Assembly (NCBI RefSeq): GCF_009914755.1
Contig: NC_060928.1
Source of the DNA: the human T2T-CHM13v2.0 reference genome, Homo sapiens
Length of the DNA stretch: 64,000 nucleotides
Strand: one strand, 5' to 3'
Part shown: positions 4,887 through 29,600 of the stretch, one piece after another
How positions within the stretch are numbered: position 1 is the stretch's first letter
Layout of the letters: the number at the start of each line of letters is the position of its first letter
Program-made: the position numbers and the translations under genes
The notes under the pieces: model-generated
The model's input: only the letters and a program-made list of their open reading frames with translations
Database searches by the model: none
What the model was told of the DNA's origin: nothing

Positions 4887-5233
4887 TGTTTTAGTCTATT
4901 CAGGCTGCTTTAACAACATATCATAAACTGGGGTGGCTTATAAACAACAGAAATTTCTTTCTCACAATTCTAGAGACTGGAAGGTCCAAGATCAAAACAT
5001 TAGTTCATTTGGGGTCTGGTCAATAGATCGCACCTGCCAGCTGTTTCCTTGCATGATGGAAGGAACAAGGAAGCTTGCTAAGAGTCTCTTATATGGGCCT
5101 TAATTTAATTCATGAGGGACCTGCCCTCCTAACCTAATTAACTCCCAAAAGCCCCCCTCCTAATACCATCACCTTAGGGGTTAAGATTCCAACAAATGTA
5201 TTTTGGAAAGACACAAACCACAAGATTATAGCA
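4887..5233 (-). mobile_element. MaLR solo LTR (MLT1A-type)
   Basis: Starts 'tgttttagtctattcaggctgct..aacaa..atcataaactggg' and ends 'gacacaaac..agattatagca'; ~350 bp. Confidence 0.8.
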
Positions 5234-6009
5234 AATAATCTGCCAAAATTTTAATTCAAAGTGTGTTATGTCTCTATGTTGGTGATTATTCTTATTATTT
5301 TATTTCATATTCTTATTTTATTTTTATTATATGTTTCAGGTCATGTATGGAGGAAACAGAATGTGAAATATAATGCCATATTGCATTTCCAACAATAGTC
5401 GAAGGCATTTTTCATTCTAAAGTTGTCTTTTTAGAATATGTATTGGGAATATATTTTGTATATTTTGCTGTACTCTTAAAATAAGGAAAAAGAAACTGCT
5501 TTTTAAAAATGAATTCACTTGGTCATAAATGAAATTTAATTGGAATTTTTTTTACTACAGAGAGCTCCTTTAGAATAAAGGCTTAATTCGTCCAACATTA
5601 TAGAATTGCTTGATCTCCAATATTTTTTAAAAAATATATTTGTGTCCCTTTTCTATAAGAGTAAAGCTGATTTAGTGTCTGTCATACAGAATACTCCATG
5701 TTGTGGGGGAACTTAGAAGCAAATGATGAGTTCTTCTTCACAAATTTGTAAGGAAGTCATGTCTCAGAAACATAAAAAAATTAAAAGAACTCTACTCAAA
5801 GGATAATAGATTATATTTATGTGTGTGACTCAAAGAATCTCATTCTCTTATAAATATATTTTGCAGAAAAAATACAGTGATACAGGCTTTAGCAAGCAAT
5901 GATTCTCCTGTATAGTCAACTAGAGGGGTAAATTGAAAAGTAAGATGTTTCTCTGCTCTGTCTTCAGTCTCTGTTTTCAGTCATCTTCCTCTTATTAGTA
6001 CTTGCCAAC

Positions 6010-6110
6010 ATATTCATTCATTCAACCATTTGTTGAATATATACCATGCAGCATTAGTTTCAGGGTAAATTGATATTGATAGACCACTTCAAAGAGCTCA
6101 CAATGCAGTG
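6010..6110 (-). mobile_element. L2 3'-end fragment
   Basis: 'attcattcattcaaccatttgttgaat...aaagagctcacaat' resembles the L2 tail in reverse. Confidence 0.45.
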
Positions 6111-6569
6111 AGCTATGAGATGCATTGATGTCATCTCTACATTGGTTAAAAAGGTATCTTCCTTAAAACAGCAAATGTGAGTTCTACGAATTTACATTGA
6201 CTACTGAACAATGCACTGTATTTTCTTCTGGGGGCAATAGGGAGTACCAGAGCTCCTAGACTTCTAGATAAGACAACTCCATCCCCAACATTTATACCTC
6301 CATTTGTAGAAGTCAAGAGGGTGCCCCTGTAATCCTCTTGCTTCTGGAAAGTGTCCCCCTTTCCCCCTCTCTTTCCTATAAAATACAGCTACCAAGATTT
6401 GATCTCTAATAATCTCTTTACAATTTCCACCCCTCCGTTTTATGTAGGTCTCCCTAAGCAATCCAAATTCATTCCTGGAACTTCTACCTCTATTTTTCTC
6501 TTTATAAAATGTCTCTGCTACATTTGTCACATGGACAGTAGGGTATAGTTTGCATGGTGACAAGAAGTG

Positions 6570-10499: not shown

Positions 10500-11606
10500 C
10501 TGCTTTTATATTTAATTGGCTCCTGTGGACAACAATTTTCTGCAAATTCCTTAATTCTTCTAGAGGCACTGCTCTTTCTCAATGCCCCAGTTTCTCACAA
10601 CCTCTCCCTGAACAAAGGAGAGCCGTATAATTAGTCCCCCAATCTTTACCAAATAAGAATGCTTCATACATACTGTCAAGGAATGGGGGGTATGTAGGGA
10701 ATTATAAGAGCAACTTCAGGATACTTTTAATAGAGATATTTGATTTGACTGTAAACACTTGATATGAATAAAATACTACAATTTTCCACACAGAATTCTA
10801 GAGGTGATTGAAGAATATCTAAGCAATATTTTTTTGGTGGGAGATAGTTAAAGAATACCTCACTACCAGAGGGAAATGGTAACTGAGTTTGAGTTTAATT
10901 AGGCAAAAGTAATATTTTGGAGAGCTGTTCAATGGTGGTAGAGAACATGGTATAAGTAAAGCCAAACAGGAAGAAAAGACTAGTGAGTTATATTTTTGAA
11001 CCACTCAAAAATTTTGATGTTGCTAATGCGTATCATATAATTTAAGCAGATAGGATACTAAAATAACAAAAGTCTTGTATTATTGAAGATTTTCTGTCAT
11101 TTGTTAAATAGAAAAATATATTCAAATATTTGGTTAAATTCTTCTGGTAATTATTTGGATGATTCATTTGAGATTGACAAGATAAAAGTAATGCAGGTAT
11201 TTCTCATAGATACCTATTAGAATCCTTAGTATGACTCAATACTTGTGAACTATACACAGAGAAAAAGATAATACAATTACGGGGACATAGAGAAATAAAG
11301 AAGGGAAGAATTCTCCAAATGAAGAATAGACGTTTAAAAAATTAAGCAAGTTATAGTTTCAATTACAACTGAAAATACATTTTTCCTATTTTAAAAATAT
11401 TATAAATGAATTTTCATCTTGATTAATGCCAGGGATAGGAGTAATTTCTTTATAAATATTAAAGCATAATATATTGCTCAATATAAAAAGAAGATGAATT
11501 CATTTATGTTCTCTGTAAAAGAATGCTTTTGTTGAAAAGTGTTGCCTTTCCATGTCTAATGATAATTTCATTTATACAAGGCCACACTATTAATACAATC
11601 AACAAA

Positions 11607-11979
11607 TGATATTGTTTGGATGTGTCCCCACTCAAATCTCATCTTGAGTTGTAGTTCCCATAATCCCCTCATATCATGGGAGGGACTTGGCAGGAGGTAA
11701 TTGAAAAATGGGGGCAATTCCCCCTTGCTATTCCTGTGATAGTAAGTTCTCATGAGATCTGATGGTTATATAAGGGGCTTTCCCTTTTGCTCAGTTCTCG
11801 GTCTTCTCCTTGCTGCCACCATGTGAAGAAGGAAGTATTTGTTTTCCCTTCTCCCATGATTGTAAGTTTCCAGAGGCCTCTACAGCCTTGCTGAACTGTG
11901 AGTCAATTAGACCTCTGTCCTTTATAAATAACCCAGTCTTGGGTATGTCTTTATAGCAGGGTGAAAACAGACTAATACC
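11607..11979 (+). mobile_element. THE1 5' LTR
   Basis: 'tgatattgtttggatgtgtccccactcaaatctcatcttga' to 'gaaaacagactaatac'; directly followed by internal sequence. Confidence 0.9.
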
Positions 11980-13342
11980 GTAAATTGGTACCACAGAGAG
12001 TGCTGCTGCTATAAAAATACCCGAAAATGTGGAAGACACTTTGGAACTGGGTAACTGGCAGAGGCTGGAACCATTTGAAGGGCTCAGGAGAAGATAGGAA
12101 AATGTGAGAAAGTTTGGAGCTTCCTGAAGACTTGTTGAATGGCTTTTATTAAAATGCTGAGAGTGATATGGACAATAAAGTCAGTGCTGAGGTAGTCTCA
12201 GATGGAGATGAGATACTTGTTAAGAACTGCATTAGCAAAAAGACTGGCAGCAATTTGCCCTGGTCGTAGAGGTCTGTGGGTCTTTGAACTTGAGACAGAT
12301 GATTTAGGGTATCTGCCAGAAGAAATTTATAGGCAGCAAAGTGTTCAAGAGGAAGCAGAGCATACAAGTCTGAAGAATTTGCAGCCTGATGATGAAATAA
12401 AAAATAAACACTCATCTTCTGGGGAGAAATTAAAGCCAGCTACAGAAATTTGCATAGTAATGAGGCACCAGATGCTGATCACCAAGACAATGGGGCAAAT
12501 GTCTCCAGGGCGTGTCGGAGACCTCTACGGCAGCCTCTCCTATCACAGGCCCAGAGGTCTAGGAGGAAAAATTGTTTCCTGGGCCAAGCCCAGGTGCCCC
12601 CTGCTCTCTGCAGCCTTGGGCCATGGTGTCCTGTGTCACAGCTGCTTCAGCTTCAGCCATGGATAAGGGGCCAAGGTACAGCTCAGGCCATTGCTACAGA
12701 ATGTGAAATCCCCAAGCCCTGGCAGCTTTCAAGAGGGGCTGGTCCTGCAAGTGTGCAGAAGACAAGGTTGAGGTTTAGGAACCTCTGCCTAGATTTCAGT
12801 GGGTGCATGCAAACACTGGGATATCCAGGCAGAAGTCTGCTGCAGAGGCAGAGCCCTCATGGCAAACCTCTGCTAGGACAGTGGAGATGAGAAATGTGGG
12901 AGCCCCCACACAGAGTTCCCACTGGGACATTGCCTAGTGAAGCTGTGAGAAGAAAGCCACCATCCTCCAGACCACAGAATGATAGATCCACTGCCAGCTT
13001 GCACCATGCATCTGGAAAAAGCTGCAGACACTCAACACCAGCCATGGAAGCAGTAAGGAGGGAGGCTGTACCTTGCAAAGCCACAGGAACAGAGCTGCCC
13101 AACGCTATGGGAGCCCACCTCTTGCATCAGCATGACCTGGATATAAGACATGGAGTCAAAGGAGATTATTTTGGAAATTTAAGGTTAAATGACTGCCGTA
13201 TTGGATTTCAGACTTGCATGGGGACTGTGATTTCTTTGTTTTGGCCACTTTCTCCCATTTGGAGTGGGTGTATTTGCCCCATGCCTATACCCTCATTTTA
13301 TCTAGAAAGTAACTAACTTGATTTTGGTTTTGCAGACTCATA
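11980..13342 (+). mobile_element. THE1 internal region, 3'-truncated (no 3' LTR)
   Basis: 'gtaaattggtacc...cccgaaaatgtggaag...' typical THE1-int; breaks abruptly at 'tttgcagactcata'. Confidence 0.9.
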
Positions 13343-13466
13343 ATAGATAACAGATATAAGACTAATATAGATATTAGAAAATAGATAAAAGATAGATATA
13401 TTAGTCTATATATATCATATTAGACAAATATAGATAATATTAGACTTTGCAGACTCATAATAGATA
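13343..13466. other. Templated patchwork filler at left rearrangement junction
   Basis: Short-motif mosaic; 21-bp tttgcagactcataatagata at 13329-13349 repeated at 13446-13466. Confidence 0.75.
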
Positions 13467-13481
13467 TTGCCCAAAGAGAAA

Positions 13482-13518
<37 letters not shown>

Positions 13519-14408
13519 ATTCAAAAGGAGAATAACAGAGAAATTCCAAAACCTAGAAAAAGATATCAATATTCAAGTATAAGATGGTTATATAATACAA
13601 AGCAGGCATAACCCAAAGAAGGCTACCTCAAGGCATTTAATAATAAAATCCAAAATGGAAAGAATAAAGACAGTATGCTAAAAACAGCAAGAGAAAAGTG
13701 ATAAATAACTTTCAATGGTGACCCATTACATAGAGCAGTAGACCTTTCAGTGGAAACTTTACAGGCCAAGGGAGAGTATCATGGCATATTTAAAGCGCTG
13801 AAGGATAAAAGAAAACTTTTACACTGAAATAAAATATCTGGCGAAAATATCCTTCAAACATTGAAAAGAAATAAAGACTGTCCTGACAAACAAAAGCTAA
13901 AGAACTTCACCAACACCACACCTGTCCTACAAGAAATGATAAAAAGCATTCTTCAATCCAAAGAAAAGGATATTAATGAGCAATAAGAAATCATCTGAAG
14001 GCACAAAACTCACTGGTCATAATTAGGCACACAGAGAAGCACAGAATATTATAATTCTGTTATCGTGGTATATAAACTACCCTTATCTTAAGCAGAAAGG
14101 TGAAAATATAAACGTATCAAAAATAACTACAACTTTTAAAGACATAAGACAGTACAAGAAAATATAAATAGAAACAACAAGTTAAAAAGCAGAAGGACTA
14201 AGTGCAGAGCTTTTATTAGTTTTCCTGTGTTAGACTGCTTGTCTGTTTAAGCCATCAGTGTTATGTTATCATCAGTTCAAAATACTGGGTCATGAAATAT
14301 TATTTGCAAGCATTCCAGTAACCTCAAATCAAAGAATATACAATGGATATGCAAAAAATAAAAAGCAAGAAATTAGAGCATGCCACCAGAGAAACTATCC
14401 ATCACAAA
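13467..14408 (+). mobile_element. L1 (L1MA/L1PB-age) ORF1 3' half and inter-ORF region; (GA)n at ~13487-13515
   Basis: Homologous to the opposite-strand copy at ~26.2-27.15 kb, e.g. 'aaaatatccttcaaacat..aaagaaataaagac..cagacaaacaaaagct'. Confidence 0.85.
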
Positions 14409-15001
14409 AAGGAAGAGAGGTAGGAAGGAAGGAAGGAAAGAAGGAAGGAAGGAAGAAGGGAGGGAGGGAAGTAAGGAGGGAAGGAAGGAAGGAAAAAGGA
14501 AGGAAGGAAGAGGAGGAGGAAGGAGGGAGGAAGGGAGGAAGGAAAGAAGGAAAGAAGGGAGGGAGGGAGAGAGGAAGGGAGGGAGGGAGAGAGGAAGGGA
14601 GGGAGGGAGAGAGGAAGGAAGGAAGGGAAAAAGGAAGGGAGGGAGGGACAGAAGGAGGGAGAGAGAGAGGAAGGAAGGAAGGAAAAGAGGGAAGGAAGGA
14701 AGGAGGGAAGGAAGGAAGGAAAAGAGGGAAGGAAGGAGGGAAGGAAGGAAGGAAGGAAAAAAGGAAGGAAGGAAGAGGAGGAGGAAGGAGGGAGGAAGGG
14801 AGGAAGGAAGAAAAAAGGAAGGAACAGAGGAAGGAAATAAGGAAGAAAGAGGGAAGAACGCAGGAAGGGAGGAGGAAAGGAAGGGAGGGAGGGAGGGAGG
14901 AAGAAAAGAAGGAAGAAGGAAGGAAGGAAGAGAGAGAGGGAGAAGGAAAGAAGGAAAAAGGAGGAAGAAGGGAGGAAGGAAGGAAGGAAAGAAGAAAGGA
15001 A
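14409..15001. repeat. ~590-bp polypurine (GGAA/GGAG) tract
   Basis: Almost pure G/A on the + strand; source of four spurious long ORFs. Confidence 0.97.
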
Positions 15002-16575
15002 GTCAACTGATCTTTGACAAAGCAGACAAAAAATACACTGTGGAAAGGACACAGTATTCAATAAATAGTGCTGGGAAACTGTATATCCTCACGTAGAATA
15101 ATTAAATTTGATCCCTGTTTCTCACCGTAGACAAAAATTACCTGAAGATGGATTGAAAACATAAATCAAAAACCCAAAATGATAAAAATTCTGGAAGAAA
15201 ACCTAGGACAAACTCTTCTGGACATTGGCCTAAGCAAATAATTTATGACTAAGACCCCAAAAGCAAATGTAACAGAAACAAAAATAAATAAATGTGACCT
15301 ATTTAACTTACAAAGCTTCTGCACAGCCAAAGAAGTAATCATGAGCATAAATAGACAGTGTAGAATTGAATAAATTATTTGCAAAGTAGACATTGACAAA
15401 GGAATAATATAAAAAATCCACAAGGAACTAAAATCATCAATTAAAAAAAACTAAATAACTCATTAAAAAGTGGGCAAAGGATGTGATCAGATATTTTCCA
15501 AAGAAAGGTATACAAAAGGCCAACAATCTTATGAAAAAATGTTCAACATCACTACTTATAAAGAAAATGCACATTAAAAAGACAATGAGATACCACCTTG
15601 CCCAGCCACAATGACCATTATTTAAAACGCAAAAAACAATGGATACTGGTGAAGATGTGATGAAAAGGAATGCTTATACAGTGTTAGTGAAATGTAAATT
15701 AGTACAACATTTATGAAAAGCAGTATAAAGATTCCTGAAAAAACTGAAAGCAGATCTACCCTTTGATCCAGCAACATCACTCCTAGGTATCCACCCAAAG
15801 GAAAATAAGTCATGTTATTAAAAAAAAAAAAAGACACCTGTGTGCCTATTTATCATAGCACAATTCACAATTTCAAAGACATGGAATCAACCCCAGTGCC
15901 CATTAGCCAATGAGTGGATAAAGTACTTATTGATATTTACTTTCTTTACTTTAAAAAATGGAGGGACATACCATGTGATATTTATTTCATAGCATGTGTG
16001 TGTGTATGTGTACACACACACACATGCACAAGTTGAATATAGATATATATTTACTTATATATGAGTAAATGTCACATTTGCTCATATATATCACATTTGC
16101 TCATGTATATGAGTAAATATGGTATTCCATGGTATGTGTGTATATGTGTGTATGTGTGTGTGTGTGTACATATATGTATACACACACACTATGGAATACT
16201 ACTCAGCCACACACAAAAAAAACAATATATTTTGCAGCAACTTGGATGTAACTGGAAGCCATCATCTTAAGTGAAGTAACTCGGGAACAGAAAACCAAAT
16301 ACCACATGTTGTCACTTATAAGCAGGAACTAAGCTGTGGGTATGCAAAAGCATACAGAGCGGTGTAACGAACACTGGAGACTCAGAAAGTGGGTAGGTGA
16401 GAGGGGATGAGGGATGAAAGATTGCCTATTGGGTACAATGTACACTGTTTGCATGATAGGTACACACAAAGCCAAGACTTCACAATTCATTCATTCACCC
16501 ATCTATGAAATTCATCCATGTAACCAAAATCCACTAGTATCATTAAAGCTATTGAAATATAAAATAAAATTTAAA
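15001..16575 (+). mobile_element. L1 3' ORF2 and 3' UTR (L1PB-like)
   Basis: 'caactgatctttgacaaagcag...' through 'attcatccatgtaaccaaaatccac...aaagctattgaaat' and A-rich tail. Confidence 0.85.
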
Positions 16576-17421
16576 AAATACATGAAGACACATACAGCTT
16601 AAAGGAAATGATGAATATAAATGTACCATACTAACCTAATAAAAAGAAAATAAGAATAGGTATCTTAATTTTAGACAAAGCAGACATCAAAGCAAGGAAA
16701 GTCAAAAGGATAAATGGCATTACACACTTATAAAGAGACTTCAACTGTGATGATAAATTTATCTATTTCTGATCTCTCTATCAGAAATCAACAGATCCAC
16801 CAGGTAGAAAATCAGAAAAGACAGAATTGAACTCAACAGCACTGTCCCTCAACTGGATGTAATTGACATTTATAAACTACTTCATCCAACAGCAGCAGAA
16901 TATACATTTTCTTCTCAAGTTGGCATGGAACATTCACCAAGATAGGCAACAATTTGGCCCATAAAACCCATCATAACAAAAGTAAAATAATATAAATCAT
17001 ATGTCTTCTCCTAGAACACAATAATATTATACTGGAAATCAGTAACAGAAAATCTCAAAATGCATAGAGGTTAAACGAAACACTTCTAAATAACATATAA
17101 GTAGAAGAAGAAATCTAAGTGTTAGTTGAACACATTATGAACTAAGTGAAAAATGAAAGCACTACTTATCAAAATTAGTAGTATGCAGAGAAAGCAGTGC
17201 TTAAAGGAAAATTGTCACAATGAATGCATATACTGTATTAGAAAAGCAAAAAGATATAAAATTAATAATTTAAAATTTCAACATAGCAAACTAGAAAATA
17301 AAGAGTAAATCCAACCCAAAGTATGCAGGAGAAAATAAATAATAAGAACTATAAGAAAAATCAATAACACTTAAAACTGGAAATCAAGAGAAAATCAACT
17401 CAAATAAAAAGCGAGTACTTT

Positions 17422-17551
17422 ATTTTTTTTCTTTTTTTTATTATTATACTTTAAGTTTTAGGGTACATTTGCACAATGTGCAGGTTAGTTACATATGTAT
17501 ACATGTGACATGCTGGTGCGCTGCACCCACTAACTCGTCATCTAGATGATG
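17422..17551 (-). mobile_element. Very short 5'-truncated young L1 (L1PA2/L1PA3-type 3' end)
   Basis: Reverse strand 'ctagatgacgagttagtgggtgcagcgcaccagcatg...aacttaaagtataata' + poly(A); 16-bp TSD aaaaagcgagtacttt at 17406-17421 and 17552-17567. Confidence 0.92.
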
Positions 17552-19656
17552 AAAAAGCGAGTACTTTAAAAAGATCAATAAAATTGATAAGCTTCTAGTC
17601 AGGCTAACTATGAAAAAATAAAAGAGGTCACAATTTACTAATATCAGAAATGCAGGAGGGAACATCTTTACACATTCCAGGGATATCAAAAGGACAAAGA
17701 AGAAGTACTAAGAATAATTCTATGCCTGCAAATTTGCAAACCTAGATGTAATAACCCAATTTCTTGAAGGACATAATCTTCCAAAATTTACATTAAAATA
17801 GACAATATGCATTGACCTGTATCTATTAAAGAAATTTAATCAATAATGAATAACATTCCAAAACAGAAGGTACCAGGGCCAGATGGGTCAGAGTAAATTC
17901 TAACAAACATTTAAGGAAAAAATTATGCCAATTTTCTATAATATTTTTCAGCAGAAAGAAGCAGAAGAAATACTTCCTAACTCATTCTGAGTCCAGAATT
18001 ACCCTCGTATCAAAACCAGCCAAAGTCATTACAAGAAAACTAGTCTTGAAACACATATGTAAAAACCTAAACAAAATATTAGTAAATTGAATTCAGCAGC
18101 GTATAAGAAGAAATATATACCACAACCGAGTGTGATTCATCCCAGGTATGCAAGCAGACTCAATATTTGCAAATCAAGTAACCATTTCATCAACAGGCAA
18201 AAAATGAGAAAGTGCATGATCACATCAATAAATGCAGAAAAAGCATTTGACAAAACCCAACACACAATCCTAATAAAAACTGTCAGTAAACTTGGAATAG
18301 AGAAAAACTTGGTCAACTTGATAAAGAATATCTACAAAAACCTACAGGGAGCATTAAGCTTAATGGTGAGAAACTAGAGTGTTTTCCCTTAAGATTAGGA
18401 ACAAGGGAAGGATGTCCACTTTTACCACTCCTTTCAACATCATACTGGAAGTCTTAGCTAATTTCCTATGACAAGAGAAGAAAACAAAAGGTATACAGAT
18501 TGAGAAGAAAGAAAACTATTTTGTTTGCAGGTTATATGACTATGTAGAAAATCCAAAATAATTGACAAAAATTTTCTGAAACTTATAATTATAACAAGTT
18601 TGCAGGTTACAATATTAATATACAAATATACATTGCACTTTCCTACATACCAGCAATGAACAAATGGAATTTGCAGTTTCAAATGCATTACGGTTTGTGT
18701 TAACATCCCCAAAAACAAAATACTGAGATAGAATCTAATAAAATATGTATAAAATTTACATAAGGAAAACAAACAAAGATAAGTTTCCTATTACATAAAC
18801 CAAAGAACTAATTAAATGAGGAGAAATTTCATAAGCATGGATAGATTCGATATTTTCATGATGTCAGTTTTTCCCATCTTTATGTATAGACCCAGTGCCA
18901 TTGCCAACAAGTTATTTTGTGAATATTGATAAACTGATTCTGAAGTTTGTATGCAGGGGCAAAAGAGCCAAAATTGCCAACACTATTTTGAAGGAGAAGA
19001 ATAAAGTTGGAGAACTGACACTATAGATTTCAAGACTTACTCTACAGCTATGGTAATCAGGACAGTATGGTGTTGACAAAAGAACAGACAAATATATCAA
19101 CGGAGCAGAAAGCCCAGGAATCTAACCAAATAAATAAGTCAACTGATTTCTGACAAAGAAGCAAAGGCACTGCAATAGAGCAAAAATAGTCTTTTTCACA
19201 AATGGTGCTGAAACAACTAGACAGCTCCACGCAAAAAAAGTAAGTAGAGACACAGACCTTAAACCTTTCACAAAAATTATCTCAGAATAGATTACAGACC
19301 AAAATGGAAAACAAACAAAAAGAAGCTATAAAAGTTTTAGTAGATAACGTAGGATAAACCCTAAGTGACCTTGGAAATGGCAAAGACGTTTTATATATAA
19401 AACCAAAGAAATAATTCACAAAATAATTAATTGATAAGCTGGACTTCATTAAATTAAATATTCTGCTTTGCAAAAGACAATGCCAATATCATGAGAAGAC
19501 AAGGCACAGACTGGGAAAAAATATTTGAAAATACACATCTGATAAAGGACGGCATTCCAAAATATACAAAGATTTCTTAACCTCAACGATAAGAAAGCAA
19601 ACACCTCGATTAAAAAATGGGACAAAGACTTTAACAAGACAAAGACCTTAACAGAC

Positions 19657-20009
19657 TGTATTAGTTCGTTTTCACACTGCTGTAACAAACTTCCCTGAGA
19701 CTGGGTACTTATAAAGGAAAGAGGTTTAATTGACTCACAGTTCCGCCTGTCTGGGAGGCCTCAGGAAACTTACAATCATGGGAGAAGGAGAAGCAGACAC
19801 CTTCTTCACAAGGCAGCCAGAGAAAGAAAACACAAAAGAGGAACTTCCAAACATTTATGAAACCATCAGATCTCATGACAACTCACTAACTATCATGAGA
19901 ACAGAATGGTGGAAACTGCCCCCATGATTCAAACACCTCCCTCCCTCAACATGTGTGGATTACAATTCCAGATAAGATTTGGGTGGGGACACAGAGGCAA
20001 AGCATATCA
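19657..20009 (-). mobile_element. THE1/MST solo LTR inserted in old L1
   Basis: 'tgtattagttcgttttcacactgct...gggtggggacacagaggcaaagcatatca'. Confidence 0.9.
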
Positions 20010-20389
20010 AAGATACCTCATCAAAGAAGATATATGGATGACTAATCAATGTTTGAAAAGATGCTTACATTGTATGTCATCTGAGAATTACAAATTAAAT
20101 CAAATACTAGACTGAGTGGCAAAAATTCAAAACACTGGCAACATCAAATGATAGTGAGAATATGAAACTGGGACTTTAACTCAATGCTATTAGGAATGCA
20201 AAATGGCATTTGGTGGTTTCTTATACAACTAAATAAATATTATCATAGAAATAGCATCTCTACTTCAAGATATTCTAGTGGTCAAATTGAAATTACTTAA
20301 TTTGTAGGGGGAGATTACAGTGCCATAAATGTCAGGAGGGGCCATCTTAGAAGCTGTTTTGCTTAGCATAAACATCCACCTGATCTAAA

Positions 20390-20500
20390 ATATTAGAACC
20401 ATGATAGGGATCTTGTCCATCTTGTCCACCGTTAAATTCTAGGACAGCTTTTGACATGTTGTATGTTCTCAATAAATATGTGATGATTGAATAAATTATT
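20390..20500 (+). mobile_element. L2 3' end
   Basis: 'ccatgatagggatcttgtc...ctcaataaatatgtgatgattgaataaat'. Confidence 0.55.
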
Positions 20501-21439
20501 TAAATACAAATCAATGTGTAACAGCAGAAGTTGGTAGGAAGAAAAGTTATTTGGTCAATGAAGCTATTTCTTCTTTTCTCTTCCTCCTTGTCTTCCTCTT
20601 CTTCTTTTTCAGTTAGAAGAAAGACAAAGTACAACATCAAATTTGCACATGCTTTACCATGATTCTCACCTTTGCATTGTGCGAATTTCTTATCTCATGC
20701 TACTTAAATTTGTTCACGTCATCTTGTATAAATGAGCTCAGAATTGAAAAGTTAATATTTTAAGCAGAATAGTTTATTTTCAGCAAGCTATCTTTTCCAA
20801 TATACTGGCTTTCACATTACAATAAACCATGTAGAAAATATATTTTCTCAACTTCATGGATGTTTGATAACAACATCTCTTATTAACTCTAAAGGTTGAA
20901 TGATGATAAAATCAAGAGCTCTTCAGAGGTTTCTTTAATAGCTTTAGCACCTCAAACACTGGAGTTGTTTATTCATTTTTATGGCAAAATGAAGTTCCAA
21001 AATATCTCTCTGATCTTACATTTAATGCAGCATGTGTTGTAAAGAATCAACTGAGGCTATTTTCTTTTCCTAAAAAGTTAAGATTCCAAAAGGGTAATAT
21101 TAACAAGAATTCCTATATGCATACAAAATAGCAGAATATTATAAGCACTTGCTTCAAAAGGTGGTATCTATAAATGTGGATTCAGTTTTAAATAAATTCA
21201 AATTCTATGTTCATTTCAGTATTTTCTCATCATATGCATGTCATTACTGAGAGATAATGTATTAAAAAGGAAAGAAAGGAAACTTGACACATATTTTTGA
21301 GCTGCTGTATGTTATGTAGTATGGTAGTTTGGGTAAATGTAGTCATCATAACAAAGCTTTGAGTTAGCTACAACTTACGCATCATAGATAAGAAAACTGC
21401 AGCTCAAAAGCGTAACATTTATGAATTAATTTTAAAATA

Positions 21440-22150
21440 ACATCATTTTTATGTGATAGCACTTGGCACAAAATGGTAAACTAGAACAAACACAACTTCT
21501 GCTGTCATAGAGCTTATCATATGGAGACAGTAATAAGACATTATTAGTCAATATACTGTTTAATTACAAGCAATGTTAAGTAGTCTAAAAGAAATGTAAA
21601 CAGTACTACAAGAGCTCAACATAGTTTAGAGGTTAAGGAAGCCCTTGTGAAGATTAGAAAATTGAGTTGAGAGATGGATGTATAGAAGCTAACTATGTAG
21701 AATACAATGGTGGATATAGTCTAGGCATGGAGAGTAGCATGTGGAAAATATGTGTGATGAAATAAAAGCATGTCTTATTCGAAGTTCTCAAAGATATTGT
21801 GGTATTAGAGTCCAGATAATGATGAAGAAAGGTAAAAATTATAAGACTGTATAGGTAAACAAGAAGGAAAACATGCATGTTCCATAGACCAGTTTAAATA
21901 GCATTTTCAGTCATTTTCCTAAGAGAAGAGACATTAATTAAAGGAGCTTAAGCATTAAATAGATTTACACCGAAAATATTATCTCTGTAATTTGGAAGAT
22001 ATCTTGGGGGAAAACAAATTTCAAATCAAGATAGAAATTTCCAAGAAAGTCCAGGCAAAAGCTGATAATATGTTGAAATATGAAAGACACAGAGAAAACA
22101 AATACATATAAAACATATCCAAGTGGTAAAAAAATAGAGCTTGGGAATGA
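21440..22150 (-). mobile_element. L2 fragment, highly diverged
   Basis: GA-rich L2 reverse-strand motifs: 'ctgctgtcatagagcttat', 'gttaaggaagccctt', 'aaagtccaggcaaaagctgata'. Confidence 0.5.
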
Positions 22151-22313
22151 AAAAGGTGAAAGAATTGAGACATCATTTATGATCTATTACATTTATATGT
22201 CATTCATGAGGGATTATGGCGTGTTTGGCATCAAAGTCCTCAACGGATGAGGTGCTTAGAAGTTTGGTAGAATGAAGAAATGAGCAAAGAGAGAGGGACA
22301 TAGAGTTTAATAC

Positions 22314-23699
22314 TTTTTTTATAATTTCCATTTTATTCCAGATTAAAGGGTACATGTGGAGGTTTGTTACATGGGTATATTGCATAATGCTGAGGTTTGG
22401 AGTGCAAATGATCCTTTCACCCAAGTAGTGAGCATAGTAAACAACAGATGATTTTCAGCCTATGCCCCTCTCTCTCCACCCCCTGTCTAGCAGTCCTCAG
22501 TGTCTCTCTTTCTCATCTTCATGTGCATGTGTATTCAGTGTTTTGCTCCCACTTATAAATAAGAACATGTGATATTTGGTTGTCTCTTCTTGCATATATT
22601 CACTTAAGATCCTCCAGCTCCATCCATGTTGCTGCAAAGGACTTGATTTTGTCATTTTTATAGATGAATTGTTTTCCACTGTGTATATGAATCACATTTT
22701 CTTTATCAAATCCACTTTTGAAGGGCACTTAGATTGAGTCTTTGCTATTGTAAATGGCACTGTGATACAGATATGAGTGCATGTGTCTTTTTGATAGAAT
22801 TGTTTTCCTTTGGGTTTATTCCCAATAGTAGAATTGCTGTTTCTAATAAGAGTTCTATTTTAAGTTCTTTGAGAAATCTCCAAATGTCTTTCCACAGTGG
22901 CTGAATTAGTTTGCATTCCCACGAAGACCGTATAAGCAGTCCTTTCACTCCAAGCCTCACCAGTATCTGCTATTTTTTGACTTTTTAATCAGCCCCACTC
23001 TGACTGATGTGAGATGGTATCTCATTGTGGATTTTATTTGATTTATCTTATGATTAGTGACGTTGAGCTGGTTTTTATGTTTTTTGGCCACTTGTACATC
23101 TTGTTTTGAGAACTGTCTGCTCATGTTCTTTTCCTGTTTTTATATTGGATTATCTGCTTTTTTTTCTTGTTGACATATTTATGTTCCTTGTGGATTCTGG
23201 ACAGTATTAGACTTCTGTCAGATGCGTAGTTGCAAATATTTTCACCCATTCTGTAGGTGTCTGTTTAATATATTGGTAGCTTATTTTGCTATGCTGAAGC
23301 TTTTTATTTTAATTAGGTCCCACTTGTCAATTCTTGTTTTTGTTGCAATTGCTACTGAGGACTTAGCCATAAATTCTTTGCCAAAGCCAATGTCAAGAAG
23401 GGTATTCCCTAGTTTTCTTCTAGAATTTTTATAGTTTTATGTCTACATTTAAATCTTTAACCCATCTTCAGTTAATTCTTGTGTATGGTGAGAGGGGTCT
23501 AGTTTCATCTTGTGCATATGGCTAGCCAGTTATCACAACACCATGTATTAAATAGGCAGGCATTTCCCCCATTGCTTGTTTTTTTCAATTTTGTCATATA
23601 TTAGATGATTGTATGTGTGTGGCCTTATTTCTGGGTTCTCTATTCTGTCTCATTGGACTATGTGTCTGCTTTTGTACTAGCACCATGTTGCTTTGGTTA
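22314..23699 (-). mobile_element. L1PA15/16-like 3' end, broken within ORF2
   Basis: T-tract then 'gggtacatgtggaggtttgttacatgggtatattgcataatgctgagg'; ends abruptly at 'caccatgttgctttggtta'. Confidence 0.88.
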
Positions 23700-23816
23700 T
23701 GAGTCTATTATTATGAGTCTATTATCTATATTAGATATAAATGTATCTAATATATATTTATATATATTAGTCTATATATAGACTTTTCTATAAATTCTAA
23801 TAGTCTATTATGAGTC
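23700..23816. other. Templated patchwork filler at right rearrangement junction
   Basis: Three copies of ttatgagtc (reverse complement of the THE1 break end) plus motifs shared with the 13343-13466 filler. Confidence 0.75.
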
Positions 23817-24280
23817 AGATAATTTTTTTAGATCTTGTAGGCATGATTCATTGTCTTTTATTCTTTTTCATTTCTCATCTTTCAAGTGTGTATTTTTAGA
23901 TAGTCTGTCTTCAGGGTCACTAATTCTTTCCTCTGCTAGATCAGTTCTCCCATTAAGAGATTAATGCATTCTTCAGTATGCCAGTGGCATTAATCTACTC
24001 CAGAATTTCAGCTTGACTTTTAAAAATTATTTCAATTTTTGTGTTAAATTTATCTGATAGATTACTGAATTTCTTCTCTGTATTATTTTTAATTTCTTTG
24101 AGTTTCCCCCAAACAGCTGTTTTGAATTATCTGTTTGAAAATTCAAATTTCCTTCTCTCCAGAATTGGTCCCTACTGCCATATTTAGTTTGTTTGATGAA
24201 TTCATATTGTCCTAGATGGTCTTGATGCTTGTGAATGTTCTTTGGTATCTGGGTGTTGTTCATTGGTGTCTGGGCATTTT
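23817..24280 (-). mobile_element. L1 ORF1 5' half (partner of the 13467 fragment)
   Basis: Homologous to 27175-27610 of the neighbouring L1, e.g. shared 'atgcattcttcagtatgcca'. Confidence 0.85.
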
Positions 24281-24464
24281 CTGCAAGGGATTCAGTGATG
24301 TGAAGACACAAGTGTTGAAGATCCCTTAGTAAAAAAATGGTGTACACCCAGTATGGTGCCCACTGCTACAGCTCAAGCACAGGGAGGAGTTAGAGGGACC
24401 TTGTGTGAGCAAGGTAATGTTCTCAAGAAAAGTGGATGTCCACTTTTACCACTTCTTTCAACAT

Positions 24465-24660
24465 CCATTGCACTCTAGCCTAGGTGACAAGAGCAAGACT
24501 CTGTCTCAAAAAAAAATAAAGGAAGGAAGGAAGGAGAGAGAGAGAGAGAGAGAGAGAGAAGGAAAGAAAGAGAAAGAAAGAAAAGAAAAAGACAGAAAGA
24601 AAGAAAAGAAAGAAAGGAAGAAAGAAAAGAAGAAAGGAAGGAAGACAGGAAGAGAAAAGA
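24465..24660 (+). mobile_element. Alu 3'-terminal fragment (~45 bp) with expanded GA/GAAA tail
   Basis: 'ccattgcactctagcctaggtgacaagagcaagactctgtctc' + A-run + (GA)n/(GAAA)n; no TSD found. Confidence 0.8.
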
Positions 24661-24663
24661 GTG

Positions 24664-27600
24664 GTAAAATGAATTTGGAAGTAATCGCTCTTCCTCTATT
24701 TTTCAGAATAGTTTGAGTAAAATTGATATTAGCCATTCTTTAAATGTTTGCTAGAATTCAGCAGAAAATCCACTGGTTCCAGGACTTTTCTTTACTGGGA
24801 GACTTTTAACTGTGGCTTTCATCTCATTAGTTGTTATTGGTCTGTTCAGGTTTTGGATTTCTTCCTGGTTCAATCTTGGTAGGTTGTATGTAACAAAGAA
24901 TCTGCCAATTTCTTCTATATTTTCCAATTTATTGGCATATAGTTGCTTATGGTAGCAACTAATAATCCTTTGAATTACTGCAATATCAGTTGGAATGTCT
25001 TCTTTTTCATATCTGATTTTATTTGGATCTTTTCTCTTTTTTTCTTAGTCTGACCAAAAGTTTGTCAATTTTGCTTAACTTTTAAAAAAAACAACTTTTA
25101 GTTCTATTTATCTTTTGTATTTTCTTTATTTCATATTTATTTATTTTGCTCTGCTCTTTATTATTTCTTTTCTCCTACTAATGTTGGATTTGGTTTCCTC
25201 TTGCTTTTCTAGTTCTTTAGGATGCACCATTAGTTTTTTATTTGAAATTTTTCCTCCTTTCTGATGTAGGCACTTACAACTATAAACTTCCATTTTAGTA
25301 CTGTCTTTACTGGACCCCATAGGTTTTGGTATGTTGTGTTTTTATTATCATTTATTTCAATAAATTTTTCAATTTTCTTCTTAATTATTTCATTGTCCCA
25401 CTGGTCATTCAGAAGCATATTGTTTAATTTTCATGTAATTGTATAGTTTCCAAAATTCCTCTAGTTTTTAATTTTTAGTTTTATTCCATTGTGGTCAGAG
25501 AAGAAGATTGATATTATTTCCATTTTTAATCTTTTGTAGCTTGTTTCGTAAGCAAACATATAGTCTATTCTTGAGAATGATCTATGTGAATAGGAAAAGA
25601 ATGTGTATTCTGCAGCCTTTGGATACAATGTTCTGTAAATATTGATTAGTTCTATTTGGTCTACAGTGCAGATTAAATCTGAAGTTTCCTTGTTGATTTT
25701 CTGGCTGGAAGATCTGTTCAATGCTGAAAGTCAGGTGTCAAATTCTCCAGCTCTTATTGTATTGGGATCTATCTCTGTCTTTATCTCTAATAATATTTCC
25801 TTTATATATCGGGGTGTTTTTGTGTTTGGTGTACATATATATATATATAGATTTAAAACTGTTATATCCTCTTGATGAATTTATGCCTTTCTCATTATAT
25901 AGTGACATTCCTTGTCTCTTCTTACAGTTTTTGTCTTGAAATCTATTTTGTCTAATATAAGAATAGAAACATCTGCTCTTTTTTGGTTTACATAGGTGTG
26001 AAACATTTTATCCATCCTTTTATCTTCATTTTACACAGGTTTTTTATAACTGAAGTGTTTTTTCTTGTAGGCAAGAGATCAATGGGTCTTGTTTTGCCAT
26101 ACATTCAGCCAACCTATGTCTTTTGATTGGAGAGTTTAGTCCATTTACATTTAATGTTATTACTGATAATTAAGGACTTACTTCTCCCATTTTGTTATTA
26201 TTTTTCTTGTTGTTGTGTGGTCTTCTCTTTCTTCTTTCTTTCCTCTCTGTTTTCTTTTAGTGAAGGTGGTATTTTCTCTGGTGTTGTGATTTAGTTCTGT
26301 GCTTTATATTTTTTGTATATCCATTGCATGTTTTTTGCTTTGAGGTTACCATAAGGCTTGCAAATACCATTTTAATAAGCCATTATTTTAACCTGATAGG
26401 AATTTAATAGTGTTTGCATAAACAAATAGACGAAGAAAAAGGAAACTAATAAAAATTCTACATGTCAATTTTGTCTCTCCATTTTTTAATTGTTCGTTTA
26501 TATTTTTGAAAAAATGTTGTAGTTCTAATTTTTGATTGGTTCATTAGTCTTTCTACTTAGTATAAGAGTAGTTTACATATGACAGTTACATTACAGGGTT
26601 ATAATAGTCTAGGTTTTTCTGTGTACTTATTATTTTGTACCTTTAGGTGATTACTTATGCTCATGAACATTCTTTTTTTTTCCTCTGATAGAAGTACTCC
26701 CTTTAGCATTTCTTGTAGTACAGGTCTAGTTTTGATGAAATTTCTCAGCTCTTTGTCTAGGACAATCTTTATTTCTCTTTCATGTTTGAAGGATATTTTC
26801 ACTGGATATACTATTCTAGGGTAAATGTGTGTGTGTGTATTTTTTTTTCCATCAGCACTTCAAATATGTCATGCCACTGTCTCCTGGCTGTAAGGTTTCC
26901 ACTGAAATATCTGCTCCCAGACTTCTTTGAATTCCATTTTATGTCATTTGTTTCTTTTCTTTTGCTGCTTTTAGGATTCTTTTATCCTTGATCTTTGGCA
27001 GTTTGATTATTAAATGTCTTGAGGTAGTCTTCTAAACCTTTTCTGCTTTAATGTTGATATTTCTCTCTAGGTTTGGGAAGTTCTCTCTTATTGTTGCTTT
27101 GAATAATCTATCTACTCGTATCTCTTTCTACCTCCACTTTAAGGCCAGTAACTTTTAGATTTGCCCTTTTGAGAATTTCTAGATCCTATAGGTGTGCTTC
27201 ATGGTTTTTTATAGTTTTTTTCTTTTGTCTCCTCTTACTGCATATTTTCAAGTAGACTATCTTCTAACTATTATTTTATTCTGCTTGATCTATTCTGCTT
27301 TTAATAGGCTCTCATGCATTCTTCAGTATGCCAATTGTATTTTACAGCTCCAGAATATGTTTTATTATTTTTAATTATCTCAATCTCTTTGTTAAATTCC
27401 TCTGATAGAATTCTGAATCCCTTCTCTGTGTTATCTTTAATTTCTTTGAGTTTCCTCTACACAGCTATTTTGGATTATCTGTCTTAAAGGTCACATATCT
27501 GTTTCCCCGGTACTGGCACCTGGTGCCTTCTTTAGTTCACTTGGTGAGGTTATGTTTTCCTGGATGGTATTGATCCTAGTAGTTGTTCTTCATTATTTGG

Positions 27601-29600
27601 GCATTAAAAAGTTTTATATTTATGTTAGTCTTCATCAGCTTGGCTCATTTGTGCCCATCCTTCTTGTAGAGGGTATCCAAATACTTGAAAGGACTTGGGT
27701 GTTGTGATCTAAGCTGTATCTGCTTTAGGTGGAAACCAAAGCCCAGTAATGTTGTGGTTCTTGAAGACTTACAGAGCTACTGCCTTGATGATTTTGGAAA
27801 AGATCTTGGAGAATTCTCTTGGTCACCAGGCAGAGACTGTTGTGTTCTTTCATCACTTACTCCCAAACAGTCTCTCTCTCTTTTCTGAGCTATGTAAAGC
27901 TGGGACTGGAGTGACACGAGCACCCACTGTGGACATCATCACTGTAACTGTGCTGGGTGAGACCTGAAGCTAGCACAGCACTGAGTCCTGCCCTGGGCCT
28001 GCTGTAACCACTCCCTAGCAAGTGCCTATGTTGGCTCAAGGCCCTGGGGCTCTTTAATCAGCAGGTGGCAAAGGTAGCCAGGCCTATGTCCTTCCCTTCA
28101 AGGCGGCAAGTTCTCCCAGTCCTGGGTGGGGCCAGAGGTGCTGTCTAGGAGTCAGTGATTAGAGCTAAAGACCTTAGATATCTACTAGTTTTCTATTGTA
28201 CTGCCACTGAGATGGCACTCACACACAAGATGCAGTCCTTCCCATTCTTCCTTCCCTTTCAAAGGCACAGAAGTGTCACCCCATAGCCACTGACACCACA
28301 AGCCATGAGGAGATCTGCTGGACTACTGCCAATGTTCTCTTTAGGCCCAAGGGCTCTTAAGTCAGCTTGCGGTGTATTGTGCCTGCCTCAGACTCACCTT
28401 TCAAGACATTGGGTTCACCTCTGGCCCAGCCAAGCTCCAAAGATGCCATACAAGAGTCAAGTCTTGAATTCAGGGACAGCAAGAGCCTATTTTGTGCTCT
28501 ACTTCCAAACCCCTGTAGCCATGCTGGTACCTAAGGTCCAAGTCAAAGTCCCCTTTACTTTTCCCTCTGGTTTTTTAAAGCAGAAGGAGTTTTGCCCCAT
28601 AGCCACCACAGCTGGTAATGTGCTGAGTCTCACCTGAAGCCAGCAAGTCTCTGAGGCCCACCCAAGGTCCTTAATGTCATACCTGAGTATTATTGCTGGT
28701 TGTTCAGGACCCAAGGGCTCTTCAGTTAGCAGGTGATAAATGTTGCCAGGACTGGGTCCTTCCTTTCAAGGCATTGAGTTTTCTTCTGGCCTAGAGTGTG
28801 TCTAGAAATGTTTTCCAGGAGCTAGGAACTGGAACAGGGACTCCCAAGTCTGACCAGTGCCCTATCCTGCTTTGATTGAGCTGGTATGCAAGATGCAAGA
28901 CGAAGTTCTCCCCAACCTTTCCTCTCCTCTCCTCAAGCAGAAGGAAGGGGTGTCTTTTGGAGATGCAAGCTGTGCAGCCAGGGGTCCGGGGAGGGGTGAT
29001 GCCTGCACTCCCTTAGCCATGTCTGAGTAGGTCATGTACCTCCCCAGTCCACTGTCACTGGGCCCAGTTCAGACCTAGGACTCGCCTAACAGTTGCAGTC
29101 TTTATGACCTAGACTCCCTTTCCAGTTTACTTAGAGATCCAGAGCACTTTGGCACTTGGTGGCAAGGTTTGCACAAACTCAAGTTCCAGTCACTGGGATT
29201 AGCAATTCCCCTCTGGCCTGGTTTAAATGCTCCTCCCATTGGTGGGTGTCAGGAGAGTTTGCACCGGTTTTCTTTCCTGCTCTAACAGGACAGCACTGAC
29301 GTCAATGCCTCACAATTGCTGTGTTCTCCCTCCCCCAGTGCCCACAGGAGCTTCCTGAACCAGGCTGCCATCTGGAGGTGGGGGAGTGTGGCATCTGCAA
29401 TTTAGGACTGTGTTTTTTCTATCTCTTCAGTACCTCTTTCAGCAATACATGGTTAAAGCCAAGTACTATGAGGGCTCACCTAATTTTTGGTTCTTACGAA
29501 AGTGTTTTGTTCTGTGTAGTTAGTTATTAAATTGATGTCCTTGCTGGGATGATGAATGGTGGAGTCTTCTATTCCACTGTCTTGCTCTGTCTCCCTTCCA
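24664..29600 (-). mobile_element. L1 (L1MA-age) 5' UTR, ORF1 and 5' ORF2; 3' half missing
   Basis: Minus-strand ORF fragments match L1 EN ('ELINIYRTLYPKAAEYTFFS..HRSFSRIDYM') and ORF1 C-terminus ('KISFKHEREIK..TRPVLQEMLKG'); long GC-richer 5' UTR 27.6-29.6 kb. Confidence 0.9.

What the first reader, a model, noticed from the sequence alone, without database searches (positions are those of the whole stretch)
13329..23845. Probable ~10.2-kb inversion revealed by one L1 ORF1 split into opposite-strand, contiguous halves
Seen: the L1 ORF1 piece starting at ~13467 is on +, and the piece at 23817-24280 is on -. The intact related copy at ~27100-27200 serves as an internal reference. Against it, the minus piece ends (sense) at 'gcctacaagatctaaaaaaatt' and the plus piece starts at 'tattgcccaaagag...gtttattcaaa', only ~20-25 nt further along. 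The reciprocal ends are also broken elements: THE1-int stops at 13342 with no 3' LTR, and the L1PA15/16 stops mid-ORF2 at ~23699. Inference: 13467-23700 was flipped, with loss of the THE1 3' part. There are no long inverted repeats at the breakpoints, so NAHR is unlikely. The event must postdate THE1 insertion (anthropoid primates).
Basis: partly seen in the sequence, partly recalled or inferred. Interest (0 to 1): 0.85.

Follow-up and report, generated by a model that had tools for sequence, protein, structure and literature searches.

The report
Ten-kilobase inversion that split an L1
About 10 kb of gene-free human chromosome 4 was flipped after two old mobile elements had landed there, cutting one of them in half; the case is well supported but is an ordinary kind of evolutionary rearrangement.

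Summary
One old L1 ("L1-A") lies in two pieces. ORF1 5' part: 24253->23817, minus strand. ORF1 3' part to early ORF2: 13467->14441, plus strand. In 20 independent full-length L1 references the pieces map to one strand and abut; about 16 nt are missing. Both are about 75-79% identical to the same reference copies. Flipping 13467-23699 restores one minus-strand L1.

Each junction carries a 120-138-nt block, 82-86% A+T: J1 13329-13466 and J2 23697-23816. The 13-mer GACTCATAATAGA occurs three times in the window (0.10 expected), always at these junctions: twice direct in J1, once inverted in J2. Six of seven other THE1 copies read CTCATA where THE1 breaks off.

I read this as a two-break, non-NAHR inversion. 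It duplicated the break-site sequence in inverted orientation at the L1 break, and sequence was probably lost at the THE1 break (delINVdup-like).

The reciprocal junction (THE1-int / unrelated L1 3' fragment) cannot be verified. No outgroup or pangenome data were available, so age and polymorphism stay open. This is a new member of a known kind, of low to moderate interest.

The parts
11607..11981 (+). THE1-type 5' LTR of the truncated THE1 element at the left breakpoint
   Evidence: Aligns to both LTRs of 7 other THE1 copies fetched from the same genome.
11982..13344 (+). THE1 internal part, cut about 146 bp before its 3' end. Its last bases read ...TTTGCAGACTCATAA.
   Evidence: 39 non-self genome matches at 84-85% identity mostly end at query 443 of 446, which is window 13342. 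The alignment to 7 copies diverges after CTCATA(A). The remainder is not found anywhere in the window.
13329..13466 (+). Junction block J1. A perfect 21-nt direct repeat, TTTGCAGACTCATAATAGATA (13329-13349 and 13446-13466), flanks 96 nt of AT-rich (TAGA/TATA)-type array. It holds two direct copies of GACTCATAATAGA.
   Evidence: 82% A+T, against 65% for the window.
13467..14441 (+). L1-A 3' piece: the 3' half of ORF1 to early ORF2, ruler positions about 1545-2504. It starts with a (GA)n run at 13485-13515 and is followed by (AAGG)n at 14409-15002.
13467..23699 (.). The inverted segment, 10,233 bp (10,472 bp if the non-THE1, non-L1 parts of both junction blocks, 13345-23816, are counted).
   Evidence: Inferred from the L1-A split and the paired junction motifs.
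22312..23699 (-). L1-E: the 3' end of a different L1 subfamily (ruler 5179-6373 plus a short A tail). It forms the right end of the inverted segment. Its 5' end is a truncation with no recognisable target-site duplication.
23697..23816 (-). Junction block J2. AT-rich array with one inverted copy of the 13-mer GACTCATAATAGA (23804-23816), two inverted copies of the 10-mer AGACTCATAA (23697-23706, 23711-23720), and a perfect 14-nt tandem duplication (23697-23725).
23817..24253 (-). L1-A 5' piece: the 5' half of ORF1, ruler positions 1090-1525. It lies outside the inverted segment.
24668..28780 (-). L1-B: an independent L1 of a similar subfamily (ruler 5-4054).

Best explanation
A two-break inversion of about 10.2-10.5 kb happened after a THE1 element and an old L1 (L1-A) had inserted.

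Before the event, L1-A lay unbroken on the minus strand. One break fell in ORF1 of L1-A. The other fell at the present end of the THE1 internal part. The segment between them was rejoined in reverse by end joining or template switching, not by homologous recombination.

The L1-A break was probably staggered, or it was copied twice. The sequence at the break (GACTCATAATAGA, perhaps with an AT-rich array already attached) now sits at both junctions in inverted orientation. The join to THE1 used a microhomology of about 6-9 nt.

The last ~146 bp of THE1-int, its 3' LTR and the 5' part of the neighbouring L1-E are missing. They were lost either in the same event (a 'delINVdup'-type complex inversion) or earlier.

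Later slippage inside both AT-rich blocks produced the perfect 21-nt and 14-nt repeats.

What is shown: the split, the abutment, the same subfamily for both pieces, and the paired junction motifs. What is inferred: the staggered break, the timing of the deletion, and the order of later slippage.
For: 1. Abutment. In 22 of 22 references that hold both pieces (25 examined, 20 independent) the pieces are on one strand. The median reference gap is 48 nt against 32 unaligned window bases.

2. Same age and subfamily. Best genome hits are 79% for the 5' piece and 77% for the 3' piece. Cross-identities are 75.2% and 75.8%. As a contrast, L1-E is only 67-70% identical to the 3' regions of 5 L1-A-like copies (a sixth fetched region, L048, gave no match of 200 nt or more), while its own best hits are 76-78%.

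3. Geometry. Both pieces run rightwards from the left and right junction respectively, so flipping 13467-23699 gives ruler positions 2504->1545 | 1525->1090 on the minus strand.

4. Paired junction motifs. The 13-mer GACTCATAATAGA occurs 3 times in 64 kb, at 13335 (+), 13452 (+) and 23804 (-). Searched with up to 1 mismatch, 0.10 matches are expected and 0 of 100 shuffles reach 3. The 10-mer AGACTCATAA occurs 4 times, all in J1 or J2; 0.28 are expected and 0 of 100 shuffles reach 4.

5. Orientation of the blocks. J1 aligned end to end with the reverse complement of J2 gives 94 identical of 110 ungapped columns (136 columns in all). The z-score is 3.9 against 500 dinucleotide shuffles, and 0 shuffles reach the observed score. 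In direct orientation z is 1.4, and 46 of 500 shuffles reach it.

6. Microhomology. Six of 7 other THE1 copies read CTCATA exactly where THE1 homology ends in the window.

7. No copy of the AT-rich block is present at this site in L1-B or in the 16 other L1 loci aligned (15 distinct copies).
Against: 1. Only one of the two ancestral adjacencies can be checked. THE1-int next to L1-E restores nothing. L1-E shows no target-site duplication matching the THE1 end. The DNA left of THE1 is unique, so its continuation cannot be recognised.

2. The AT-rich interior of J1 matches AT-rich arrays elsewhere in the genome at 72-87% identity (31 non-self matches), and J2 was not among the listed matches. The likeness of the J1 and J2 interiors is therefore not above the background for such arrays. 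Only the GACTCA-containing motif is locus-specific.

3. In the present arrangement the L1-A 5' piece and L1-E are collinear on one strand, which a more complex history could also explain.

4. No outgroup or second human haplotype was available.
Confidence: 0.8

Rival explanations
1. A three-or-more-break rearrangement instead of an inversion of the whole 10 kb. Only the L1-A 3' piece (13467-14441, perhaps with the (AAGG)n array) was cut out from beside the 5' piece. It was then reinserted, inverted, 8.7 kb to the left next to THE1. The segment 15003-23699 never changed orientation.
For: On the minus strand today the L1-A 5' piece (ruler 1090-1525), J2 and L1-E (ruler 5179-6373) are adjacent and collinear, as if they were one L1 with its middle removed. 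No element other than L1-A spans a boundary of the segment, so the orientation of 15003-23699 has no independent witness.
Against: It needs at least one more break. L1-E is not the same subfamily as L1-A: it is 67-70% identical to the 3' regions of 5 L1-A-like copies, where about 76% would be expected. The collinearity therefore has no positive support. An L1 fragment that happens to lie on the same strand and further along the element is, by my rough estimate, about a one-in-ten coincidence in this L1-rich region.
Confidence: 0.1
2. Homologous recombination between pre-existing inverted repeats. Two copies of the ~120-nt AT-rich block already lay in inverted orientation, one inside L1-A and one between THE1 and L1-E, and recombination between them flipped the segment.
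For: J1 and the reverse complement of J2 align along their whole length with motif copies at both ends of each.
Against: The block would have had to insert twice, yet it is no mobile family. Genome matches are only generic AT-rich arrays and lack the GACTCA ends. J1's second motif copy carries 6 nt of THE1 sequence (TTTGCA), and J2's tandem unit carries bases of L1-E. The arrays therefore grew after the junctions existed. Arms of 120 nt are very short for NAHR (established knowledge).
Confidence: 0.05
3. No rearrangement. Two independent L1 fragments happen to end at neighbouring positions of ORF1 on opposite strands, or the pattern comes from L1 twin priming.
For: The region is dense in L1 fragments (at least five between 13 and 29 kb). 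By my estimate, a given pair of facing ends would abut within ±50 nt of a 6.4-kb element about 1.6% of the time.
Against: The same 13-mer, unique in the window, sits directly against both pieces in inverted orientation. Both pieces have the same divergence. Twin priming puts the inverted 5' piece directly upstream of the 3' piece within one insertion that has a poly-A tail and target-site duplications. Here the order is the reverse and 10 kb of older elements lie between the pieces.
Confidence: 0.03

Closest known systems
Complex inversions with flanking duplication or deletion (dupINVdup, delINVdup, delINVdel classes of human structural variation; Collins et al. 2017, PMC5338099, seen only as search listing and start of abstract)
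   Same: An inverted segment whose junctions carry a short duplicated sequence in inverted orientation at one break and missing sequence at the other. There are no long homologous arms. There is microhomology at a junction.
   Different: This one is inferred from broken transposable elements in a single haplotype, not from paired alleles. The duplicated core may be as short as 13-21 nt, with the rest of each block grown later by slippage. Whether the deletion belongs to the same event is not shown.
Staggered-break model of inversion with inverted duplications at both ends (Ranz et al. 2007, Drosophila, PMC1885836, seen as search listing and start of abstract; the details of the model are recalled)
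   Same: The sequence lying at one breakpoint is found at both ends of the inverted segment in opposite orientation. Its native continuity is kept on the L1-A side of each junction (boundaries 13466|13467 and 23816|23817).
   Different: The organism is a primate and the segment is small. The copies are now only 94 of 110 aligned columns identical and indel-ridden, and their interiors are low-complexity, so a duplication of the full 120 nt cannot be proved.
Retrotransposon recombination-mediated inversion between inverted L1 or Alu copies (Lee et al. 2008, PMC2603318, seen as search listing and start of abstract)
   Same: An inversion with breakpoints in retrotransposons in primate DNA.
   Different: That mechanism leaves two chimeric but continuous elements and needs inverted homologous copies at both breakpoints. 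Here one breakpoint is in THE1 and the other in an L1, and the L1 is left in two halves.
L1 5' inversion by twin priming (recalled)
   Same: Two adjoining parts of one L1 on opposite strands, with a few bases lost or duplicated at the joint.
   Different: The order of the pieces is wrong, 10 kb lie between them, and there is no poly-A tail or target-site duplication.

Membership tests
Two-break chromosomal inversion (evolutionary micro-inversion) | One pre-existing element is split into two pieces on opposite strands that abut in element coordinates, one piece just inside one end of the segment and the other just outside the other end | tested here: met
   22 of 22 references holding both pieces. 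Net missing sequence is about 16 nt. Geometry.
Two-break chromosomal inversion (evolutionary micro-inversion) | The reciprocal junction also restores a contiguous ancestral sequence | tested here: inconclusive
   THE1-int (13344) and L1-E (23699) are unrelated truncated elements. There is no target-site duplication, the THE1 remainder is absent, and the left flank is unique.
Two-break chromosomal inversion (evolutionary micro-inversion) | An outgroup or another haplotype shows the uninverted order | not testable with these tools
   Only the window's own assembly could be searched. Supplements could not be read.
NAHR / retrotransposon recombination-mediated inversion | Long, highly similar inverted repeats spanning both breakpoints, leaving continuous chimeric elements | tested here: not met
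   The longest inverted arm pair found in 13000-24600 is 87 nt at 70% complementarity, inside the segment (L1-C / L1-E). At the breakpoints there are only ~120-nt AT-rich blocks. L1-A is left in halves.
Inversion with inverted duplication at the breakpoints (staggered break / delINVdup type) | The same sequence is present at both junctions in inverted orientation, more often than chance | tested here: met
   13-mer: 3 copies against 0.10 expected. 10-mer: 4 copies against 0.28 expected. All are at the junctions, direct in J1 and inverted in J2.
Inversion with inverted duplication at the breakpoints (staggered break / delINVdup type) | The duplicated block is homologous over its whole length (~120 nt) | tested here: inconclusive
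   The inverted alignment has z = 3.9 against z = 1.4 for direct orientation. However, the interior matches unrelated AT-rich arrays elsewhere equally well.
L1 twin priming | The inverted 5' piece lies directly upstream of the 3' piece within one insertion bounded by a poly-A tail and target-site duplications | tested here: not met
   The order is reversed. The pieces are 10.2 kb apart with older L1s and a solo LTR between them.
DNA transposon with terminal inverted repeats | Target-site duplication and flanks that join into one continuous sequence | tested here: not met
   The flanks are THE1-int and the L1-A 5' piece, which are unrelated. L1-A continuity runs across the would-be terminus. 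No family members exist in the genome.

The most novel reading that the evidence does not exclude
The inversion is young: ape- or human-specific, or still polymorphic in people. The three exact 13-mers at the two junctions survive because little time has passed. The locus would then be a sequence-resolved primate example of an inversion made by a staggered break in an AT-rich array inside an L1, with a duplication at one breakpoint and a deletion at the other.
Probability: 0.15. Interest if true: 0.5.

Novelty: new member of a known kind. Interest (0 to 1): 0.3.

Why it matters
The inversion lies in a gene desert. There is no gene within 100 kb, only two pseudogenes elsewhere in the window (hub annotation), so no functional effect is expected.

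Its value is methodological and mechanistic.
- Broken-repeat logic alone can recover an inversion and both of its breakpoints to the base from a single haplotype.
- The junctions preserve a readable repair signature: the duplicated break-site motif in inverted orientation, microhomology with THE1, sequence loss at the other break, and later growth of AT-rich arrays.

If outgroups date the inversion, it adds one dated, non-NAHR micro-inversion to the primate catalogue.

Tried and rejected
1. THE1 LTR pair. The THE1-type LTR at 19655-20009 (minus) looked like the lost 3' LTR, which would have been a second element split by the inversion. Rejected. Three copies of the older L1 family (L040-L042) align on both sides of it (to 19641-19645, and again at 19994-20209). 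It is therefore a solo LTR inserted into that older L1.

2. L1-A plus L1-E, or L1-B plus L1-E, as one element. Rejected on identity.

3. L1-A 3' piece plus the older L1 at 16547-19641 as one element. They are collinear (ruler 2504 then 2758). Rejected. The best genome hits for the stretch queried (17549-19640) are 71-72% over long matches against 77% for L1-A, and the older L1 (16547-19634) is about 59-60% identical to the ruler against 75% for L1-A.

4. Pfam on 113 stop-to-stop ORFs of 11-25 kb. The only mobile-element hit was a sub-threshold RVT_1 at 18063-18374. The ORFs are too decayed for the coordinate mapping I wanted. Four other sub-threshold, unrelated hits were ignored.

5. Search of solved structures with two ORFs from the L1-A pieces. 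Nothing relevant.

6. Hairpin or cruciform idea for the AT-rich blocks. Folding energy is not different from shuffles: z = -0.72 and -1.14.

7. Continuation of the THE1 left flank. 10900-11606 is single-copy, so there is no reference with which to trace it.

8. Region 20200-22310. No repeat match among the 40 candidates scored. It remains uncharacterised.

9. Literature.
- Searches for the locus by coordinate prefix found 0 papers.
- General searches gave only mechanism papers.
The inversion tables of the ape-genome paper (PMC12058530) and of the pangenome papers may list this locus.
A smaller fetch replaced them.


Full report
**What was checked**

The window is human T2T-CHM13 chr4:35,402,001-35,466,000 (hub note). 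I read both claimed breakpoints and the internal reference copy. I ran self-comparisons of the window. I then used the window's own assembly to fetch independent copies of the elements involved.

**The L1 split is real**

- 13496-14441 (+) aligns to 27129-26221 of an uninterrupted minus-strand L1 ("L1-B", 24668-28780).
- 23825-24253 aligns to 27176-27601 of the same copy.

A full-length L1 from chrX (locus L034, read in reverse complement) served as a coordinate ruler.
- The minus piece 24253->23817 covers ruler positions 1090-1525.
- The plus piece 13494->14441 covers ruler positions 1569-2504.
- A chr7 copy (L033) gives 1092-1522 and 1543-2511.

Across a panel of 24 fetched loci plus L1-B (25 references):
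- 22 carry both pieces on one strand.
- 0 carry them on opposite strands.
- 3 lack one of the two hits.
- Two pairs of loci are the same genomic copy, so 20 references are independent.

The reference gap between the ends of the two BLAST alignments has a median of 48 nt (range 34-71). Two references have 358 and 372 nt, which I assume is an insert. The window has 32 unaligned bases at the two ends, so about 16 nt of L1 are unaccounted for.

The pieces have the same divergence.
- Best genome hits are 79% and 77%.
- Each piece keeps about 75% identity to the references that were picked with the other piece: 75.2% and 75.8%, my means of the rows.

Two sub-threshold Pfam hits to the L1 ORF1 C-terminal domain, in the right order at 13705-13983, place the break in ORF1 upstream of that domain. 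Flipping 13467-23699 gives a continuous minus-strand L1 running from ruler 1090 to 2504.

**The other breakpoint**

- A THE1 element (5' LTR 11607-11981, internal part from 11982) loses homology to other THE1 copies at 13342-13344.
- In 7 other copies, about 146 bp of internal sequence and the 3' LTR follow at this point. Neither is found next to the break, and the 146 bp are found nowhere in the window.
- At the right end of the segment an L1 3' fragment ("L1-E", 23699->22312, minus, ruler 5179-6373, short A tail) is cut inside ORF2.

L1-E is not part of L1-A or L1-B. It is 67-70% identical to the 3' regions of 5 L1-A-like copies (a sixth fetched region, L048, gave no match of 200 nt or more). 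Its own best hits are 76-78%.

The inferred ancestral adjacency of THE1-int with L1-E therefore restores nothing.
- L1-E shows no target-site duplication matching the THE1 end.
- The DNA left of THE1 is single-copy.

This side of the inversion cannot be verified from one genome.

Both junctions carry an AT-rich block: J1 13329-13466 and J2 23697-23816. Their interiors are 82% and 86% A+T, against 65% for the window.

- J1 is bounded by a perfect 21-nt direct repeat, TTTGCAGACTCATAATAGATA. By the alignment with 7 other THE1 copies, at least its first 6 nt (TTTGCA) and the CTCATA further in are THE1's own sequence.
- The 13-mer GACTCATAATAGA occurs exactly three times in the 64-kb window: twice direct in J1 and once inverted at the very edge of J2, against the L1-A 5' piece. 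Searched with up to 1 mismatch, 0.10 matches are expected and 0 of 100 shuffles reach 3.
- The 10-mer AGACTCATAA occurs four times: twice in J1 and twice inverted at the L1-E edge of J2. 0.28 are expected and 0 of 100 shuffles reach 4.

Written in the L1-A sense, the two blocks show the same order of landmarks:
1. the motif;
2. a GACTA unit;
3. a single GTCTATATATA unit;
4. an ATATAGATAATA stretch;
5. the motif again.

An end-to-end alignment of J1 with the reverse complement of J2 gives 94 identical of 110 ungapped columns (136 columns in all). The z-score is 3.9 against dinucleotide shuffles (0 of 500 reach the observed score). In direct orientation z is 1.4 (46 of 500 reach it).

There is a caveat. 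The interior of J1 also matches unrelated AT-rich arrays elsewhere in the genome at 72-87% identity (31 matches). These matches do not cover the GACTC start or the last 22 nt, and J2 was not in that list. Only the motif is locus-specific evidence. The interiors may be one duplicated array, or two arrays that grew separately from the same seed.

**Origin of the motif**

Six of 7 other THE1 copies read CTCATA at the point where THE1 breaks off. In the alignment of L1-B and 16 other L1 loci (15 distinct copies) across the break, the window's bases next to both L1-A pieces can be read as diverged L1 sequence with a short private deletion. None of those copies has an AT-rich block there.

I infer that the motif is L1-A's own sequence at the break, that it is present on both sides of the break (a duplication), and that it was joined to THE1 through a microhomology of about 6-9 nt. 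This is inference from short, diverged strings.

J1's inner motif copy carries THE1's TTTGCA. J2's perfect 14-nt tandem unit includes bases of L1-E. Both arrays therefore kept growing by slippage after the junctions were formed.

**Mechanisms excluded or weakened**

- NAHR or L1-L1 recombination. The long inverted homologies are 68-70% identical and are not at the breakpoints: L1-C 15003-15923 with L1-E, and the L1-A 3' piece with L1-B. Such recombination would also leave continuous chimeric elements.
- Twin priming. The order of the pieces is wrong and 10 kb of older elements lie between them.
- Transposon with inverted termini. The flanks are unrelated and no such family exists in the genome.
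- Hairpin-prone palindrome. Folding is no better than for shuffles.
- A rearrangement with three or more breaks that moved only 13467-~15002. This cannot be excluded, because no second element spans a boundary of the segment. It needs more breaks, and its one attraction, collinearity of the L1-A 5' piece with L1-E, fails the subfamily test.

**Content of the segment, left to right**

| Coordinates | Element |
|---|---|
| 13467-14441 | L1-A 3' piece |
| 14409-15002 | (AAGG)n |
| 15003-~16578 (+) | L1 3' end of an apparently older type |
| 16547-19641 and 19994-20209 (+) | Much older L1 (best long hits 71-72%), interrupted by a solo THE1-type LTR at 19655-20009 (minus) |
| 20210-22311 | About 2.1 kb without repeat matches among the candidates scored |
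| 22312-23699 | L1-E |

**Age**

The event is younger than the THE1 and L1-A insertions. The 16 mismatches in 110 aligned columns of J1 and J2 would suggest tens of millions of years if the blocks began identical. The sequence is low-complexity and indel-prone, however, and the exact 13-mers point the other way. I leave the age open. No outgroup, second human assembly or inversion catalogue could be consulted.

**Verdict**

The mechanism can be stated more precisely: non-homologous or microhomology joining, with an inverted duplication of the break-site sequence at the L1 break and probable loss of sequence at the THE1 break. That matches the known delINVdup and staggered-break patterns. It is a new instance of a known kind in a gene-free region.

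Noticed in passing
window 19655-20009 (minus), flanks 19621-19653 and 19994-20209: A solo THE1-type LTR is inserted into a much older plus-strand L1, which continues on both sides. A 17-nt tandem duplication (GACAAAGACCTTAACAA, 1.9 copies) sits directly at its left edge.
   Followed up: partly
window 14409-15002: A 594-bp (AAGG)n microsatellite (about 150 units, 74% matches) replaces everything of L1-A beyond ruler position 2504. It abuts the 5'-truncated L1 3' end at 15003.
   Followed up: partly
window 24466-24660: This looks like the last ~45 nt of an Alu (plus strand; recognised from memory, no call). Its A tail is followed by a (GA)n run and an (AAAG)n-type array. It lies between L1-B, which is 3'-truncated at 24668 (ruler 4054), and the L1-A 5' piece. 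Positions 24254-24465 match no L1 in the 39 non-self hits.
   Followed up: partly
window 23769-23784: A perfect 16-nt palindrome, AGTCTATATATAGACT, lies inside junction block J2. The block as a whole folds no better than shuffles.
   Followed up: yes
window 20210-22311: About 2.1 kb inside the inverted segment has no repeat match among the 40 scored genome candidates. It may be unique or very old sequence.
   Followed up: no
window 15003-15923 (+), 19054-19641 (+), 22701-23704 (-), 62948-64000 (+): Four L1 fragments in the window cover the same late-ORF2 region. Three of them start within about 100 nt of ruler position 5180-5270. This is probably coincidental 5' truncation.
   Followed up: no
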